Part shown: positions 42,201-48,200 of the stretch, in pieces
How the letters are laid out: each line of letters opens with the position of its first letter
How positions within the stretch are numbered: the stretch's first letter is position 1
Source of the DNA: Leucoraja ocellata
Lineage: Eukaryota
Reading direction: 5' to 3'
DNA length: 64,000 nt
Assembly: GCA_036785375.1 (NCBI GenBank)
Contig: JAWMAR010000107.1
Coordinates: 2,728,001 to 2,792,000, forward strand
Program-made: the position numbers

Positions 42201-45200
42201 CCCATCCGGACACTCCTCCCACAGGAAAAACACTATGTCTGTATACATGTAAATAGATTTATTTATTGAAATCATATTCTATGTCGCTCTTCCAGGGAGA
42301 TGCTAACTGCATTTCGTTGTCTCTGTACTGTACACTGACAATGACAATTTTACTTCGGAGTCACGTGAGTGACTACGTGAAGAACCCACCCAGCGCGCAG
42401 GCGCGGCATTACGTCAGCAGTGCAACAGCGGCAGCAGCTGGAGCCAGGCTCTCCAGCTGCAGCATAAAGACGAGACCTCAGGTAAGTGCCTTTTTTGTTT
42501 CAGAGTCGCGCTAGAGAGAATAATGGCCTCTCGCAAGCGACCAGCCAGGAGGACTGCCTGCCCTACTCCACCCGAGGACGGGTCCATAGCGGGACGGCAG
42601 CCTCTCGCAGCGGAGGAGCTTTTTCAACGCTCCCGCTCACCCGACACCGAGCCGCCCCCAGTGCTGCAAATCTCAACGCCCCGCACAGGGAGGAAGGCGA
42701 CACAGAAAACCGACCGGCCGGTGTCCTCCGATGATTCGGAGGAACGGGAACACTCTCCCCCACCGAAAAGGGGAGACGCTCGGATAAGCTGCATGAGGCA
42801 GCTCCTCGAACGTATGATTAATGAGGAGATGCGGCATCTCCCAGGAGGACGGGCTTTGGCCTCCTCCTCTCCACACCCTTCTGTACCCTCTATATTCGAG
42901 GGCAGTAAGGGAGGCCAGGACTGGGCTGGCCTATCCCAAGGGCAGGCGGAGGATATCGTCAGCATGCCGGGCGTGCCGGAAGAAGAGCTACTGGGTGTAG
43001 TGGGCCGATATGCGGCACCACCAACAACTGGGATGGTGTTGCCACCCAGAATGGCGGCAACTATAAACAGGCTGTCCAACAACCCGCTGCAGGACAAGGC
43101 TGTCCAGCAGGCCCTTGACAACTACATCGCGCCCGAAAATTGCGAGGCGCTGAGGGTCAAGACGGTAAATGGGCAGATCTGGAACCAGCTGGGGCAGCAC
43201 ATAAGGGCTCAGGAGGTCAAAATGCAGCGAGTCCTGAAGCTACACTCAGCAGCCGTCACCGCCTTTGCTCGGTCAGTTGGGGAGGAAGACCTGACCATAC
43301 CCCAGCAAGATGCCCTCGCACTGATGTGCGGCACCACGTACGAGCTAAACAACCTACGGCGGGACAACATCAGGCCTGCCCTCAACCCAACATATGCGGG
43401 CCTCTGTAAAGCTCCAGCGCCCGAACGACAGGCGCTGCTATTTGGTGCGGATCTGGCCAAAAGGCTCAAGGAGTTGGAAGAGGCGGCAAAACCAGTAGGC
43501 CTCATGAGGGCAGGGCCAGGACCGAGCAGGGCGAAGACACCCAGTTGGCCGCACGCCTCGGCAGCCACCAGCAGATACCGAGCTGGTGAAAGCCTGGTGA
43601 CCGCCTCCCACTACCCCCAGTGCTCTTTTTTAGAGCGGGGCCCAGGGCGGAGCCGTGGGAAGATGCGCCGCCCCACCGCAGCACCAACACGGACAACCTT
43701 GGGCCAGACCCACCGGAAACGACCCCACAAGTGAACATGGAGGTAGGTGGGTCTGGTTCCTGTCAACATACACAGACAAAGGGTGTAGTATTAACAGGGG
43801 GACGTTTGAGGTTCTTCAAGCATGTTTGGTGCTCCCTTACTAACAATCAGTTTATACTCAACAGTATTAGTGGATACAAGATTGAATTCAAACCAGGCGT
43901 AGAACCGCCAGTTCAGCACATGCCCCAAAGGGTGTTCCTTCCCTCGGCAGTTGAGAAGGTAGAAGGACAAGCTGAACTTGATCGGCTCGTGGCTAAAGGC
44001 ATCATAGAAATGACCACACACGAGCCGCAAGAATTTGTATCAAATATTTTTCTCAAAACTAAAAAAGATGGTGGATGTCGCATTATTATTGATCTGACAT
44101 CACTTAATCAGTCTGTTGAGTATCAACATTTCAAAATGGAGACATTTGTCACTGCCAGACAACTGATCTCCAAGGGATACTACATGGCAAGCATAGATAT
44201 CAAAGATGCTTACTATTTGGTACCCATTCATAAAGATTACTTTAAATATCTGAAATTTATCTGGAGGGGCCAGCTATGGCAGTACCGAGCTTTGCCCAAT
44301 GGTTTAACGACAGCTCCCAGACTATTTACGAAAATTCTTAAAGTGGCCATGAAGAAATTGAGAGAATTAAAACATTTAGTAGTGGCCTATCTGGACGATG
44401 TTCTCATATTAGGAAGAACACGGGATCAAGCTGTCGCAGGAGTGTTAGCCACTAAACGACTCCTTGAAACTTTGGGTTTTATCCTCCACCCAGATAAATC
44501 AATATTGGAGCCTACTACTAACATGGATTACTTAGGCTTCACTATTGACACGATTCACATGACTGTCACTCTGCCCAGAAACAAAACAGTTTCACTCATT
44601 GAAGCTTGTAGCCATTTAATTGCCACACCGCAACCTAGAATACGGCATGTAGCCAGAGTTATTGGCTCTATAGTAGCAGCATTTCCGGCTGCCCAACATG
44701 GGCCCTTGCATTATCAAAATCTCCAAAGAGCAAGGACTCATGCATTACGCCTTCATAGGGGGCATTATGATCGCAAAATGGATTTACCCGCTGAAGCCAA
44801 ATTAGAACTTCAGTGGTGGGTTGACAATATTTGGCACAGTCACAGTCCTATCACCGTAACCAATCCTAACATAACCATTGCAACGGATGCCAGTGCTTTA
44901 GGCTGGGGAGCTACTAACTCCAAAGACAGCACAGGTGGCAGATGGACTAATTCAGAGGCATCGCTACTACACTCACTGGGCATTAACTTTTTGGAAATGC
45001 TCGCCGCCTTTTATGGGCTAAAAGCATATGCATCTGGTATGCGACACGTGCATGTTAGAATTATGATCGACAACACTACGGCAGTATCTTATATCCAGCA
45101 CATGGGTGGCATTAAATCAGTATCATGCGACAAATTAACTGCTATAATCTGGCAATGGTGTGTCGAGAGACATATTTGGCTATCAGCTGCCTATTTACCA

Positions 45201-48200
45201 GGCAAGCTAAATTTAGTGGCGGACACCAGGTCACGAAAATTCAACGACAACATCGAATGGATGTTGGACCCAAAATCATTTGCTAAAATTATCAAGCAAT
45301 ATGGTACGCCAGATATAGATTTGTTTGCGTCTAGGTTAAATCACCAACTACCCATGTATGTGGCTTGGGAACCAGACCCAGAGGCAGCAGCGGTAGATGC
45401 CTTCACGCTGGACTGGGGAAATTTCTTTTTCTATGCTTTCCCTCCCTTCTGCCTCATCAGTCGGGTACTCCAGAAAATTCAGGCAGACTCAGCCTCTGGC
45501 ATTCTGGTCGTGCCCGACTGGCCTACCCAACCATGGTTCCCAATGTTCCACGACATGGTGGTAGAGACACCAATGGTCCTTCAACACCACCCCCAATTAT
45601 TGACTCACCCGGTAACTGGCATTAGCCATCCATGCCACCAAAAATTGAAACTCCTGGTTTCCAGATTTTGAACAGGCCTTACCGGGGATTGGGGTTATCA
45701 GACAGAACAATCACCACCATGTCGGCATCCCTGCGAGTTTCCACCAAGAAACAGTACCTGACCTTCATCAGGAAATGGGAACAGTACTGTCTGGACGCAG
45801 GGACATCCTACACGACGACTTCGATCTCGGATGTGCTGGAGTTCCTGGCCCACCTGCACCATGATCTCAAGATGAGCTACAGTGCCATCAACACGGCTCG
45901 GAGCGCACTGTCCGCATATCTAATGCCGATAGAACAGCATAGTGTGGGATCCCACCCTCTAGTCATCAGACTCCTTAAGGGGATCTTTAATACCAAACCC
46001 CCTACACCTAGATACACTCACATGTGGGATGTGAGTGTGGTTCTCACACACCTTCGAGGTTGGCCTCCGGTGGGATCCCTGAGCCTGGAACAGGCCACTT
46101 ACAAAACCCTCATGCTCATGGCGCTTGTCTCAGCTCAAAGGGTCCAGTCGCTCCATCAGCTTAATCTAAACTACATGGTGACCACCCCAGATACCATTAC
46201 TTTCACTATGCCGGGGTTGGTAAAACAAAGTAGACCAGGTACATCAAACTCCCCGATGATCTTCCGGGCTTACCCTCCAGAACCTAGGCTGTGTGTGGTG
46301 ACCCACCTTCAACATTATCTAGACACAACCCAAACGCTAAGAGGGAGAGAGAAAGCCTTATGGGTTAGCCACAGGAAGCCTTTTGGACGGGTAACCAGCC
46401 AAACATTATCCAGATGGTTGAAACAGGTCCTCAGCATGGCAGGGATTAACACTAATGTTTTTAAATCCCATTCAACCAGGGCAGCGTCCACCTCAGCGGC
46501 GGATAGGATGCAGGTTCCCCTCGACCACATCCTCAGGGCAGCGGGATGGTCAAGGGAATCGACATTCCAACGATTTTACAACAAACCGCTGATGGAACAG
46601 GACGTCTTTGCGGATACTGTTTTACAAACCGCAAAGTTATGATTTAAAGCCCATGGGAGCTATTTTGTTTTTGTTATAGTTAATAAATATTTCTTTTATA
46701 ACTAAACAAACTTGTTGGTCTCTAGCTACCACTTCCTCCCTCGATGACCTTTCGGCAGTGAGTGATATAACTGTTACACGGTTTGAAATCACAGACCTTT
46801 GAAGTCTTCACGTAGTCACTCACGTGACTCCGAAGTAAAATAGTAAGATTAAACGAGTACTTACCAGTACGAAGTTTGATCTGTATTTTATGAGGAGTTA
46901 CGATGAGGGATTACGTGCCCTCCGCTCCCACCCTCATTATATAGATCAAATTCGGACTAATGTCTCGTTGGTCTTCACTATCTTTACTTCAACTAGTGTC
47001 TATCTGTGATTCCACACCGCTGCTTGGAAGTATGCCGCGCCTGCGCGCTGGGTGGGTTCTTCACGTAATCCCTCATCGTAACTCCTCATAAAATACAGAT
47101 CAAACTTCGTACTGGTAAGTACTCGTTTAATCTTACTATTAAAGTTGAATCTGGGGTTTATAATAGCAGAGGGATTGTGCCTGCAATGGCAGAGAGATAG
47201 AAATTTGTACTGTCAGAGGAACATTGTCAAGTGGACTGGGTTTGTATTATGAGAAGGAACGTGTTTGAGTTGTTGCGTGAACTGTGTTTGTACTGTCAAA
47301 TGGTCAGTGTTTTGTGCTGCCCGACCACTGGTGCTTGCGTATCAACATGCTGTTATTACCCGATCATGAGTACACTCCACATCGACCTTGCTTGTATTGT
47401 CTGATGGACTGTGCTGTGCCAGATAACCAGATTAAAGTGTTTGCTTGCTGACCCCCACCGCTCAAATATTTCTGCCAACTCTGCAAGGTCAGAGCATAGA
47501 TGTTCTCAGTGAGGTTACCGTTTGCTCTGTGTAAATTGGTTGGCATATTAACTGGCCAGCACCAGGAAATACATTTCAAAAGGTGTTTGTTGGAGGGAAA
47601 TCTTTCTGGGACATACTGAAACATAATGCAGATTTTACTTTCCACCTTATTCTTCCTTTAGAAATGGATTCTCTGAATACCTTCGGGGGGGTCACTGATG
47701 AAAGGTAAACCTCCATTAAAAGACAGCCGTTTTCAAAGGGCTTGATACATTAAAAGGACTGCCATTAAAGGGACATCCCCATTATAGGTGTGCCAATCTT
47801 AAAAGGGTAGTTCCATTAATAGAGGGCCATAAATAAAAACACACAACTGTTTGTGTTGGTCCCTAATGTAAGGACATTTGAATTGGCGCCTACATGTAGT
47901 GTAATCTTGCTGCACGTGTGGGATTCAGCAACATTAACCTCTGTGTTATAATTGAAACAAACATTGTGCTCATTTGGGAACACCCTTTTTTAATATATAG
48001 TACAGCACACTCGCACAGACAGACACACACACACGCACGCGTGCACACATACATACATACGCTCACTTGTGCGCATGCATACACATGTGGGTACATGCAT
48101 GCCCATGCACACATGCACAAACACACATACACATGCACACACATATGTGTGCATATACACGCACACGCTGCACATGCACCCACACACAGCACGAACGCAG

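What the first reader, a model, noticed from the sequence alone, without database searches (positions are those of the whole stretch)
42347..47140. Intact, potentially active DIRS1-type YR retrotransposon
Seen: all three ORFs are open with catalytic motifs present (YLDD; RNase H D-E-D-D; YR R-HxxR-W-Y). ITRs match 36/36 and both ICR halves match perfectly (37/37, 79/79). The 5' third retains many CpGs, whereas flanking repeats are decayed. Inference: a very recent, possibly still mobile insertion, with ITRs that look short for a DIRS1-group element.
Basis: partly seen in the sequence, partly recalled or inferred. Interest (0 to 1): 0.68.

Follow-up and report, generated by a model that had tools for sequence, protein, structure and literature searches.

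The report
Intact young DIRS1-like retrotransposon copy
A 4.8-kb mobile element of the DIRS1 type, which copies itself through RNA and re-enters DNA with a Cre-like recombinase, sits here complete and almost unchanged since it inserted; the kind is well known, but its very short ends look more like those of mollusc relatives than of other vertebrates.

Summary
Window 42347-47140 (+) is a complete 4794-bp DIRS1-like tyrosine-recombinase retrotransposon. It has three open ORFs: ORF1 (403 aa), RT-RNase H-methyltransferase-like (644 aa) and a Cre-like recombinase (336 aa). All catalytic residues sit in columns that are invariant across relatives. The end architecture is textbook. The termini are ATT...ATT. 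The left end pairs 37/37 and the right end 79/79 with one internal complementary region, whose halves overlap on AAT. The inverted terminal repeat is 63 nt (27 divergent + 36 perfect), followed by a 46-nt right extension.

No change in 285 nt of paired repeats, together with 4149 nt of unbroken coding sequence, limits divergence since insertion to roughly 0.5-1%. Near-identical proteins (643/644, 399/403, 316/324) occur in other assemblies. Activity itself was not testable.

The best named relative is from little skate (69-75% aa), so the host is probably a cartilaginous fish. The end dimensions match published mollusc elements, not the seven published vertebrate ones. A second, broken copy of a sister family (25138-28424, minus strand) keeps strongly conserved ends and confirms the right boundary.

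Verdict: a new member of a known kind, of moderate interest.

The parts
42347..47140 (+). Whole DIRS1-like element, 4794 bp, beginning and ending with ATT
   Evidence: The right boundary is confirmed independently: similarity to copy 2 stops exactly after the terminal ATT.
42347..42409 (+). Left terminus, which is the left ITR. Divergent part 42347-42373 (27 nt); conserved part 42374-42409 (36 nt). There is no left extension.
   Evidence: 57/64 to the right ITR with 2 gaps; the core is 36/36.
42410..42522 (+). Rest of the 5' untranslated region, CpG-rich; presumed promoter or leader
   Evidence: CpG o/e is 0.92 for 42347-42746. A promoter role is inferred from DIRS-1 literature and was not tested.
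42523..43734 (+). ORF1, 403 aa, 'Gag' by position only. Disordered basic N- and C-terminal parts flank a helical core at about residues 170-330.
   Evidence: No Pfam family. 1355 relatives at E<=1e-3. AF2 pLDDT is 67 overall and 81-96 in the core. No fold match: 0 hits at E<=1e-3 in PDB and in BFVD.
43626..43632 (+). Candidate -1 slippery heptamer in the ORF1/ORF2 overlap, in the right phase (inference only)
   Evidence: It is the only TTTTTTA on the element's + strand. The downstream stem has z = +0.63, which is not better than shuffles.
43737..45671 (+). ORF2, 644 aa, pol: RT - RNase H - methyltransferase-like. The frame is open from 43620 and the ATG lies 2 nt after the ORF1 stop.
44061..44546 (+). 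Reverse transcriptase domain (ORF2 residues 109-270); YLDD at 44388-44399
   Evidence: Pfam RVT_1 at E 6.8e-19. A profile of relatives hits caulimovirus and Ty3 RT structures at E 1.8e-27 to 3.7e-26.
44868..45236 (+). RNase H domain (approximate bounds) with D384, E420, D445 and D496
   Evidence: Weak Pfam RT_RNaseH match at E 0.069. All four acidic columns are 1.00 in 42 rows.
45243..45587 (+). Methyltransferase-like domain (ORF2 residues 503-617) with invariant FPPF 568-571
   Evidence: The window protein's own hits are sub-threshold: PCIF1_WW E 0.054, Dam E 0.15. Dam matches 20 of 42 relatives and PCIF1_WW 19 of 42 at E<=1e-3. The hits were mapped to the window protein through alignment A2.
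45632..46642 (+). ORF3, 336 aa, Cre-like tyrosine recombinase. It overlaps ORF2 by 40 nt. The SAM-like N domain is 45725-45919 and the catalytic domain 46091-46585.
   Evidence: Pfam Phage_integrase E 4.3e-7 and Phage_int_SAM_4 E 3.6e-5. AF2 pLDDT 89.2, pTM 0.80. The top Foldseek hit is Cre at E 1.4e-8, TM 0.62-0.69. The profile hits Cre at E 0.0055.
46805..46917 (+). Internal complementary region. Left half 46805-46841 (37 nt), right half 46839-46917 (79 nt). They overlap on AAT 46839-46841, the 'circular junction'.
47032..47094 (+). Right ITR (conserved 47032-47067, divergent 47068-47094)
47095..47140 (+). Right extension (rE), 46 nt, complementary only to the ICR
25138..28424 (-). Not part of the element: a second, broken DIRS1-like copy of a sister family. 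It is used here as a comparator. Its 5' part runs into the N gap that starts at 29194.

Best explanation
This is a structurally complete, autonomous DIRS1-like retrotransposon that inserted recently.

Shown here:
- It encodes an ORF1 protein of unknown fold, a Ty3-like RT/RNase H with a Dam-like domain, and a two-domain Cre-like tyrosine recombinase.
- Its two ends are each perfectly complementary to adjacent halves of one internal region, and those halves overlap by 3 nt.

Inferred from work on Dictyostelium DIRS-1 and from comparative annotation of the family:
- An RNA shorter than the element is reverse-transcribed into single-stranded cDNA.
- The internal complementary region then acts as a splint and template that brings the two ends together and restores them, giving a closed double-stranded form whose junction reads end-ATT-start.
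- The recombinase exchanges strands between that ATT and an ATT in the chromosome. This leaves ATT on both sides and no true target duplication.

Here the ATT used lay in the tail of a LINE-like repeat.
For: Identity:
- RVT_1 E 6.8e-19; Phage_integrase E 4.3e-7.
- The recombinase model (pLDDT 89.2) best matches Cre, XerA, XerH and lambda Int.
- All six recombinase residues, both RT aspartates and all four RNase H acidic residues lie in columns that are 100% conserved.
- Dam or PCIF1-type hits occur in 20 and 19 of 42 relatives, over the stretch that aligns to ORF2 residues 503-617.
- No protease or DDE integrase family appears in any of the three ORFs at E<=0.01.

Architecture:
- 37/37, 79/79 and 36/36 repeat matches; ATT/ATT/AAT triplets; 0 direct-repeat families.
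- This is exactly the lITR-lICR-rICR-rITR-rE scheme of PMC3266345 (section 10 and Table 3 read). That paper reports that 23 of the 28 annotated elements begin and end with NTT, most often ATT.

Mechanism:
- The ICR is essential for DIRS-1 retrotransposition, at a step after first-strand synthesis.
- The cDNA is single-stranded and mostly linear.
- The trinucleotide model is as described above (PMC7192593 abstract and sections 26 and 29 read).

Youth:
- Near-identical proteins in other assemblies: 643/644 (on 4 contigs), 399/403 (on 5 contigs), 316/324.
- The right boundary is confirmed by copy 2.
Against: - Activity is not shown. I had no transcripts, no empty site and no copy count. The window holds no paralogous empty site.
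- ORF2 departs from the residue shared by >=95% of 41 relatives at 12 of 140 such columns. The median row departs at 2, and only 1 of 41 rows departs at more. However, 7 of the 12 are conservative, none is catalytic, the near-identical protein from another assembly differs at only one residue, and the skate protein shares 2 of the 3 positions it covers. They therefore look like lineage traits.
- ORF2's own methyltransferase hits are below threshold.
- ORF1 could not be shown to be a capsid-like protein.
- An AATAAA lies at 46682-46687, upstream of the ICR. If used, it would give RNAs that lack the ICR.
- The zero-mismatch repeats could in principle be a product of assembly polishing.
- How ORF2 and ORF3 are translated is undecided.
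Confidence: 0.85

Rival explanations
1. It is a young but dead copy. The ORFs are open, yet this copy or its whole subfamily is inactive, for example through missense changes or host silencing, and other master copies drive the family.
For: ORF2 deviates at 12 of 140 highly conserved columns, more than 40 of the 41 other rows. The host genome is CpG-depleted (o/e 0.40), so it methylates DNA and the CpG-rich 5' end is a likely silencing target. In Dictyostelium, DIRS-1 moves only when RNAi is disabled (PMC7192593 abstract).
Against: No catalytic or fully invariant column is lost, except 1 of 76 in ORF2. 7 of the 12 deviations are conservative, and several are shared with the skate and P0002 relatives. 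Independent assemblies carry proteins 97.5-99.8% identical, as expected of a family that multiplied recently.
Confidence: 0.3
2. It is an assembly or polishing artefact. An older copy was smoothed to look like the family average because reads from many copies were used to correct it, so its perfection is not real.
For: The window comes from an assembly with gaps (N runs 29194-29366 and 29463-29986). Multi-copy repeats are the usual victims of such smoothing (general knowledge).
Against: The flanks are unique in the window and the junctions are sharp. Copy 2 in the same window was not smoothed: it has 21 stops counted in its HSPs, and its own arms match 77/79. Proteins from other assemblies differ from this copy at 13 residues in all, so it is not simply their average.
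Confidence: 0.05
3. It is a domesticated host gene cluster rather than a transposon, with the ORFs kept open by selection for a host function, as happened to DIRS1-like ORF1 in mammalian LAP2alpha.
For: DIRS1-like ORF1 has been co-opted before (PMC4495291, passages read). A protein-atlas cluster in which 25% of members carry the LAP2alpha family was among the look-alikes of the ORF1 core, at score 0.91.
Against: Host selection would not keep 285 nt of non-coding paired repeats perfect. All three ORFs and both ends are kept. The locus sits inside a repeat tail among decayed repeats. No LAP2alpha match was found by Pfam in ORF1 or in 50 relatives, nor in the PDB sequence searches.
Confidence: 0.02
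4. It is a recent horizontal arrival from a marine invertebrate, which would explain the mollusc-like end architecture.
For: The end dimensions (ITR 27+36, rE 46, ICR 37-79, ATT/ATT/AAT, 4794 bp) match LgDIRS1, LgDIRS3, AcaDIRS1 and AcaDIRS2. They match none of the 7 vertebrate elements in PMC3266345 Table 3. After the two skate proteins, the named hits among the 120 listed for ORF3 are from a brittle star, a sea urchin and a scallop.
Against: A skate carries a relative at 69-75% aa identity. The window itself holds a sister family that diverged under purifying selection: mismatch by codon position is 0.33/0.19/0.48 and 0.31/0.22/0.54. This implies long residence and diversification in this host lineage. 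The invertebrate hits are only 41-46% identical. Most hits are unnamed, so the taxon picture is thin. The 2011 survey saw no clear horizontal transfer in the family (PMC3266345 section 7).
Confidence: 0.05

Closest known systems
Mollusc DIRS1-like elements LgDIRS1, LgDIRS3 (Lottia gigantea) and AcaDIRS1, AcaDIRS2 (Aplysia californica), as tabulated in PMC3266345 Table 3
   Same: The end plan is almost the same. LgDIRS1 is 4680 bp with ATT/ATT/AAT, divergent ITR 35, conserved ITR 31, rE 48, ICR 39-86 and no long ORF overlap. This element is 4794 bp with ATT/ATT/AAT, 27, 36, 46 and 37-79, and its ORFs overlap by only 40 nt.
   Different: The host here is probably a cartilaginous fish. I could not compare proteins with the mollusc elements because no sequences were at hand. 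The only named mollusc hit (scallop) is 41% identical in ORF3. The resemblance concerns dimensions, not demonstrated kinship.
Vertebrate DIRS1-like elements (the DrDIRS1 group of fishes; Xenopus and Anolis families), PMC3266345
   Same: They share the gene set, the ITR + ICR + rE plan and the NTT end trinucleotide.
   Different: The 7 tabulated vertebrate elements are 5322-6196 bp. Their conserved ITRs are 102-148 nt and their rE 26-34 nt. Their ends are C/G/TTT-type, never ATT, and 6 of the 7 have long ORF overlaps. No named bony-vertebrate protein appears among the 120 listed ORF3 hits.
Dictyostelium discoideum DIRS-1 (type element)
   Same: It has ITRs, an ICR complementary to both ends and a tyrosine recombinase. 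It is the source of the replication model used here, and the requirement for its ICR is shown experimentally (PMC7192593).
   Different: In DIRS-1 the gene order is GAG, YR, pol with long overlaps, and the ITRs are about 316 bp (PMC3266345). Here the order is ORF1, pol, YR and the ITR is 63 nt.
Leucoraja erinacea LOC129695449 (P0122), an NCBI 'uncharacterized protein'
   Same: It is the best named relative: 225/302 (75%) over RNase H and the MT-like domain, and 189/274 (69%) over the recombinase.
   Different: It is a 562-aa gene model that runs the pol and recombinase frames together. It lacks the RT part and the recombinase C-terminus, and it belongs to a different family.
Ngaro and PAT-like tyrosine-recombinase retrotransposons
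   Same: They also combine RT/RNase H with a tyrosine recombinase.
   Different: They are bounded by split direct repeats, and Ngaro lacks the MT domain (PMC3266345 Background). Here there are 0 direct-repeat families, inverted ends plus an ICR, and an MT-like domain.
Cre recombinase of phage P1 (PDB 1nzb, 1crx and others)
   Same: It shares the two-domain fold (TM 0.62-0.69) and the R-K-H-R-W-Y active-site set, including Trp at the fifth position as in Cre.
   Different: Sequence identity is 9-14%. The crossover core implied here is 3 bp, read from the element's ends. No target half-sites are known.

Membership tests
DIRS1-like retrotransposons (order DIRS) | Encodes a tyrosine recombinase instead of a DDE integrase, and has no aspartic protease | tested here: met
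   ORF3: Phage_integrase E 4.3e-7, Cre-like fold, R170 K198 H280 R283 W306 Y316 all in 1.00 columns. No protease or integrase family in the three ORFs at E<=0.01.
DIRS1-like retrotransposons (order DIRS) | RT/RNase H of the Ty3/Gypsy-related type | tested here: met
   RVT_1 in 42 of 42 rows. The best solved relatives of the family profile are caulimovirus and Ty3 RT, at E 1.8e-27 to 3.7e-26. The RNase H D-E-D-D columns are 1.00. No tree was built.
DIRS1-like retrotransposons (order DIRS) | Methyltransferase-like domain after RNase H (absent in Ngaro and VIPER) | tested here: met
   The window protein's own hits are only sub-threshold (E 0.054 and 0.15). Dam matches 20 of 42 and PCIF1_WW 19 of 42 aligned relatives at E<=1e-3, over the stretch equal to ORF2 residues 503-617. 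FPPF 568-571 is 1.00 in all four columns. Even the relatives' hits lie just under Pfam's gathering scores.
DIRS1-like retrotransposons (order DIRS) | Inverted terminal repeats | tested here: met
   42347-42409 against 47032-47094, 57/64, with a perfect 36-nt core.
DIRS1-like retrotransposons (order DIRS) | Internal complementary region whose two halves are complementary to the two termini and overlap on a 3-bp circular junction | tested here: met
   37/37 and 79/79; the halves share AAT 46839-46841.
DIRS1-like retrotransposons (order DIRS) | The same NTT trinucleotide at both ends, complementary to the junction | tested here: met
   ATT / ATT / AAT. This is the commonest type in PMC3266345.
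DIRS1-like retrotransposons (order DIRS) | No target-site duplication: one of the two ATT comes from the target | not testable with these tools
   There is no empty site in the window, and no host genome or population data were available.
DIRS1-like retrotransposons (order DIRS) | Absence of split direct repeats (which would indicate PAT or Ngaro) | tested here: met
   0 direct-repeat families of >=20 nt in 42200-47300.
DrDIRS1 group (all fish elements in the 2011 survey) | Clusters with fish DIRS1-like elements in a pol phylogeny; ends GTT; conserved ITR about 145 nt; rE about 27 nt | tested here: not met
   The end features differ: ATT, 36 nt and 46 nt. The phylogeny itself was not run because no reference sequences were at hand, so only the architectural part was tested.
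Active (currently transposing) element | Transcripts, extrachromosomal cDNA, insertion polymorphism, many near-identical copies | not testable with these tools
   The only evidence is indirect: near-identical proteins on 4-5 contigs of other assemblies.
Retroviral/Ty3-type Gag (capsid fold) for ORF1 | Capsid-like fold or zinc knuckle | tested here: not met
   There is no Pfam family in ORF1, and no capsid or Gag family among 50 relatives. There is no PDB sequence hit of note. Foldseek gave 0 hits at E<=1e-3 in PDB and in BFVD with a model whose core has pLDDT 81-96. No CCHC pattern was seen on reading.

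The most novel reading that the evidence does not exclude
Cartilaginous fishes may carry their own old, still living lineage of DIRS1-like elements, separate from the DrDIRS1 group of bony fishes. This lineage would have kept the compact 'ATT, about 65-nt ITR, about 47-nt extension' end design otherwise described in molluscs. Its families would share nearly the same ends (84% identity over the last 357 nt and a 37/37 identical left ICR half, against 62-66% in the genes), so that the proteins of one family could serve the ends of another, including broken copies such as copy 2.
Probability: 0.2. Interest if true: 0.55.

Novelty: new member of a known kind. Interest (0 to 1): 0.35.

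Why it matters
Complete DIRS1-like copies with perfect ends are the raw material for understanding how this poorly studied order of retrotransposons replicates. Experiments exist only for Dictyostelium.

This copy gives a clean, compact example from what is probably a cartilaginous fish, a group absent from the 2011 survey of the family. It shows that the short-ITR design is not confined to molluscs.

The comparison with copy 2 shows that the ICR and ends are as constrained as second codon positions across families. This agrees with the experimental finding that the ICR is essential.

For genome annotation the practical point is that predicted genes such as the skate 'uncharacterized protein' are transposon ORFs run together.

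Tried and rejected
Accessions, names and contig counts for the near-identical proteins therefore stayed unknown beyond the tables.
- I looked for an uninterrupted paralogue of the insertion site by comparing each flank separately with the window. None was found. The right flank only resembles the 23-nt tandem array at 38295-38864.
- A sigma-70 promoter and terminator scan of the 5' end was run. It is irrelevant for a eukaryote and I discarded it.
- Rfam and tRNA scans of the window found 0 and 0.
- Pfam scans of flanking ORFs found only a 125-aa ORF at 41791-42165 matching PF09004 (E 1.2e-6), a domain I recall being common in vertebrate LINE proteins. Nothing else matched.
- ORF1 fold: the AF2 model was searched with Foldseek against PDB and BFVD, and the relatives' profile against PDB sequences at E<=10. 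Nothing meaningful came back. The LAP2alpha link known from the literature appeared only as an atlas lead.
- The stimulatory RNA structure after the candidate slippery heptamer was not better than shuffles.
- CpG direction test on the 13 amino-acid differences from the other assemblies' proteins: only 1 is explained by CpG decay in the other copy and 0 by decay in this one, so the test is uninformative.
No DNA of relatives, no copy number, and no Repbase or Dfam comparison could be obtained.
- Additional file 3 of PMC3266345 (positions of repeats and motifs) was not opened.

Full report
**What is there**

Window 42347-47140 (+) carries three long ORFs in three different frames:
- ORF1, 42523-43734, 403 aa.
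- ORF2, 43737-45671, 644 aa counted from the ATG that lies 2 nt after the ORF1 stop. The frame is already open from 43620.
- ORF3, 45632-46642, 336 aa, overlapping ORF2 by 40 nt.

None has an internal stop. They are the three longest of the 30 ORFs of at least 130 aa in the 64-kb window.

**Repeats**

- The left end 42347-42383 is the reverse complement of 46805-46841 (37/37).
- The right end 47062-47140 is the reverse complement of 46839-46917 (79/79).
- The ITR core 42374-42409 matches 47032-47067 (36/36).

A gapped alignment shows that the ITR is really 63 nt, 42347-42409 against 47032-47094 (57/64). It consists of a 27-nt divergent outer part and the 36-nt perfect inner part. A 46-nt right extension, 47095-47140, pairs only with the internal region.

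The element starts and ends with ATT, and the two halves of the internal complementary region overlap on AAT. No direct repeats of 20 nt or more exist in the region. Folded as single-stranded DNA, the last 351 nt give -113 kcal/mol, z = -20.8, and 0 of 100 shuffles fold as well. Chance is not an issue.

**The proteins**

ORF2:
- It matches Pfam RVT_1 (E 6.8e-19).
- Alone, it matches retroviral and Ty3 reverse transcriptases in the PDB.
- A profile of it and 41 relatives is closest to caulimovirus and Ty3 RT structures (E 1.8e-27 to 3.7e-26).
- In that 42-row alignment the RT aspartates D220 and D221, the RNase H residues D384, E420, D445 and D496, and an FPPF motif at 568-571 are all in 100%-conserved columns.
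- The stretch after RNase H gives only sub-threshold hits by itself (PCIF1_WW E 0.054, Dam E 0.15). However, 20 of 42 aligned relatives hit Dam and 19 of 42 hit PCIF1_WW at E<=1e-3. Those hits map to ORF2 residues 503-617. This is the methyltransferase-like domain that separates DIRS1-like elements from Ngaro. Even in relatives the hits sit just below Pfam's gathering scores.

ORF3:
- It hits Phage_integrase and the SAM-like N-terminal domain.
- Its AlphaFold model (41-row alignment, pLDDT 89.2, pTM 0.80) is most like Cre (E 1.4e-8, TM 0.62-0.69), then XerA, XerH and lambda integrase.
- The family profile finds Cre at E 0.0055.
- R170, K198, H280, R283, W306 and Y316 are invariant in 41 rows.
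- The skate relative also conserves ORF3 residues 4-29. This argues that translation of this frame begins at or before the ATG at 45632.

ORF1:
- It has no Pfam family, but 1355 relatives at E<=1e-3 in the representative library. These share a core at about residues 150-335.
- The model is confident only in a helical core at about 170-330 (pLDDT 81-96; 67 overall).
- That model finds nothing in PDB or BFVD (0 hits at E<=1e-3 in each).
- 'Gag' is therefore a name by position only, as the literature also says (PMC4495291, passages).
- That paper derives the mammalian LAP2alpha domain from DIRS1-like ORF1. In my hands this link showed only as an atlas lead: a cluster in which 25% of members carry LAP2alpha, at score 0.91. 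It did not show in Pfam or PDB sequence searches.

**Comparison with the described family**

I read section 10 and Table 3 of Piednoel et al. 2011 (PMC3266345), passages of its Background and sections 7 and 9. Their scheme of left ITR, left ICR, right ICR, right ITR and right extension fits this element point for point. That includes the 3-bp circular junction, the NTT end trinucleotide (most often ATT), and the split of the ITR into divergent and conserved parts.

The published ITR range for 28 annotated elements is 66-316 bp, so 63 nt is marginally the shortest.

The seven vertebrate entries (Anolis, stickleback, Tetraodon, Xenopus) have these values:
- length 5322-6196 bp;
- conserved ITRs of 102-148 nt;
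- extensions of 26-34 nt;
- C/G/T-TT ends.

This element has 4794 bp, 36 nt, 46 nt and ATT. That is almost the layout of Lottia LgDIRS1 (4680 bp; 35 + 31; 48; ICR 39-86; ATT/ATT/AAT) and the Aplysia elements.

The gene order here is ORF1, pol, recombinase, unlike Dictyostelium DIRS-1 (GAG, YR, pol).

**Host**

The best named relative is a little skate protein (P0122): 75% identity over RNase H and the MT-like domain, and 69% over the recombinase. A second skate protein is 51% identical. The next named hits are from a brittle star, a sea urchin and a scallop, at 41-46%.

Most hits are unnamed, so this is thin evidence, but a cartilaginous fish is the likeliest host. DIRS1-like elements were undetected in 37 mammals (PMC3266345 section 9), and I do not take the window for human.

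The 2011 survey does not mention cartilaginous fishes (0 occurrences of 'Chondrichthyes' or 'shark'). My three literature searches listed no paper whose title or abstract start shows that it describes the fine structure of such an element from that group. The two papers I opened for passages give only superfamily-level repeat summaries. This is not proof that none exists.

**Age**

All 285 nt of the left terminus, ICR and right terminus take part in at least one perfect pairing, and these pairings are regenerated at each replication cycle.
- No change in 285 nt has probability 0.058 at 1% divergence per site.
- The coding 4149 nt expect 1.7 new stops per 1% divergence.
- Adding an assumed indel rate of one tenth of substitutions, the joint probability of the observed state is 0.013 at 0.5% and 0.18 at 0.2%.

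So the copy is less than roughly 0.5-1% diverged since insertion. I give no date in years because no rate for this host was at hand.

CpG observed/expected is 0.65 for the element against 0.34-0.36 in the flanks. ORF2 and ORF3 are only 0.50-0.52, and the excess lies in the 5' 400 nt (0.92) and the ends (1.19). A lineage living in a methylating genome would itself be CpG-poor, so this is weak as a clock.

Proteins nearly identical to all three ORFs exist in other assemblies:
- 643/644, seen on 4 contigs;
- 399/403, seen on 5 contigs, the longest 4491 nt;
- 316/324. One of these eight differences is at the other protein's first residue (M there, L at ORF3 residue 13 here), which may only reflect where its reading frame was called, judged by comparing with my reading.

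They show that the family exists beyond this locus at 0.2-2.5% protein divergence. They do not show how many genomic copies there are, or whether any are transcripts.

**Evidence against full function**

ORF2 departs from the residue shared by at least 95% of the other 41 rows at 12 of 140 such columns. The median row departs at 2, and only one row departs at more. The breakdown is as follows (unless noted):
- Seven of the twelve are conservative changes.
- They are spread over the N-terminal part (3), RT (3), connection (3), RNase H (1) and tail (2).
- None is a catalytic residue, by comparison with the columns.
- The skate protein shares 2 of the 3 it covers.
- P0002 shares 4 of the 12.

I read them as lineage traits, but they keep the 'young but inactive' rival alive. 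ORF3 and ORF1 are ordinary in this respect (1 of 31 and 1 of 17).

**Mechanism**

Shown here are the coding capacity and the geometry of the repeats. The rest is inferred from literature (PMC7192593, abstract and sections 26 and 29 read; PMC3266345 Background):
- In Dictyostelium the ICR is essential for retrotransposition, at a step after first-strand cDNA synthesis.
- The cDNA intermediates are single-stranded and mostly linear.
- The model is that the ICR restores and joins the ends of a cDNA made from a shorter transcript.
- The closed double-stranded product recombines, through its junction trinucleotide, with the same trinucleotide in the target, leaving it on both sides without a true duplication.

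Here the junction would read ...CTTACT-ATT-TTACTT..., which is the reverse complement of the ICR centre. The target ATT lay within ...GACA-ATT-AAAG..., just downstream of a LINE-like ORF fragment (PF09004 hit at 41791-42165).

How ORF2 and ORF3 are expressed is open. ORF2 is in the -1 frame relative to ORF1. One heptamer of the general X_XXY_YYZ form (a recalled rule) lies in phase at 43626-43632, in the 115-nt overlap. It is the only such string on the element's sense strand. The stem that follows it is no better than shuffled sequence (z +0.63), and the ATG 2 nt after the ORF1 stop allows restart instead.

**Second copy**

On the minus strand, 25138-28424, lies another DIRS1-like copy whose 5' part disappears into the N gap at 29194. 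I left the gap alone.
- It aligns to element positions 1540-4794 at 62-66% identity.
- It is broken. The pol-like part shows 14 stops within 4 tblastn HSPs and at least 2 frame switches. The recombinase-like part shows 7 stops within 3 HSPs and at least 2 frame switches. The HSPs overlap, so the stop counts are upper estimates.
- Mismatches by codon position are 0.33/0.19/0.48 in pol and 0.31/0.22/0.54 in the recombinase. This is the signature of long divergence under protein selection, so it is a sister family and not an old copy of the same one.
- Its last 357 nt are 84% identical to the element, and its left ICR half is 37/37 identical to the element's left end.
- The whole 3' non-coding part mismatches at 0.19, like second codon positions.
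- Similarity ends exactly after the terminal ATT, which independently fixes the element's right boundary.
- Its own right end and ICR half still match 77/79, although its genes are wrecked.

Either it was already defective when it inserted and was served by another element's proteins, or the arms have been homogenised. [quoted passage not shown] I could not decide between these.

**Verdict**

It is a new member of a known kind. The points of some interest are the probable host group, the mollusc-type compact ends in a vertebrate, and the cross-family conservation of the ends.

Still unchecked are copy number, polymorphism, transcription, comparison with Repbase or Dfam, and a phylogeny. No eukaryotic genome or contig collection was open to me.

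Noticed in passing
window 25138-28424 (-), running towards the N gap at 29194: A second, broken DIRS1-like copy of a sister family. It is 62-66% identical in the genes, with a selection-type codon-position pattern. Its ends and ICR are 84-100% identical to the intact element, and its own right end and ICR still match 77/79.
   Followed up: partly
window 25135-25137 and 42344-42346: There is microhomology beyond the ATT. The 3 nt flanking copy 2's right end equal the 3 nt that follow ATT at the element's left end (its arms pair over 82 nt, not 79). At the intact element, 2 of the 3 nt left of the insertion equal the 3 nt before the terminal ATT. With n = 2 this may be chance.
   Followed up: no
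window 43626-43632: A T_TTT_TTA heptamer lies in the ORF1/ORF2 overlap, in phase for a -1 shift into the pol frame. The following stem is not better than shuffles.
   Followed up: partly
window 46682-46687 and 47138-47143: An AATAAA lies just after the ORF3 stop and upstream of the ICR. An ATTAAA is formed by the terminal ATT plus the flank, so the target ATT lay inside an ATTAAA. No function was tested.
   Followed up: no
window 42482-42503: A GTAAGT ... T-rich ... CAG pair resembling a splice donor and acceptor lies in the 5' leader, only 22 nt from end to end. That is too short for a usual intron and is probably chance.
   Followed up: no
window 41791-42165 (+): A 125-aa ORF immediately left of the insertion matches PF09004 (E 1.2e-6), a domain I recall being common at the C-terminus of vertebrate LINE proteins. 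The element appears nested in a LINE-like tail.
   Followed up: partly
window 38295-38864; also 47156-47324: There is a 23-nt tandem array of 24.9 copies with 87% matches. The element's right flank resembles this array at 63-70% identity.
   Followed up: no
window 63023-63366, 53976-54181, 60544-60893: Further minisatellite-type arrays are present: 25 nt x 13.8, 22 nt x 9.2, and a G-rich 26-62-nt array.
   Followed up: no
window 29194-29366 and 29463-29986: Two runs of N (173 and 524 nt) were left untouched. They hide the 5' part of copy 2.
   Followed up: no
protein P0122 (Leucoraja erinacea LOC129695449): This public 'uncharacterized protein' model is a DIRS1-like pol C-terminal part and recombinase run together in one reading frame. 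It is transposon-derived, not a host gene.
   Followed up: partly
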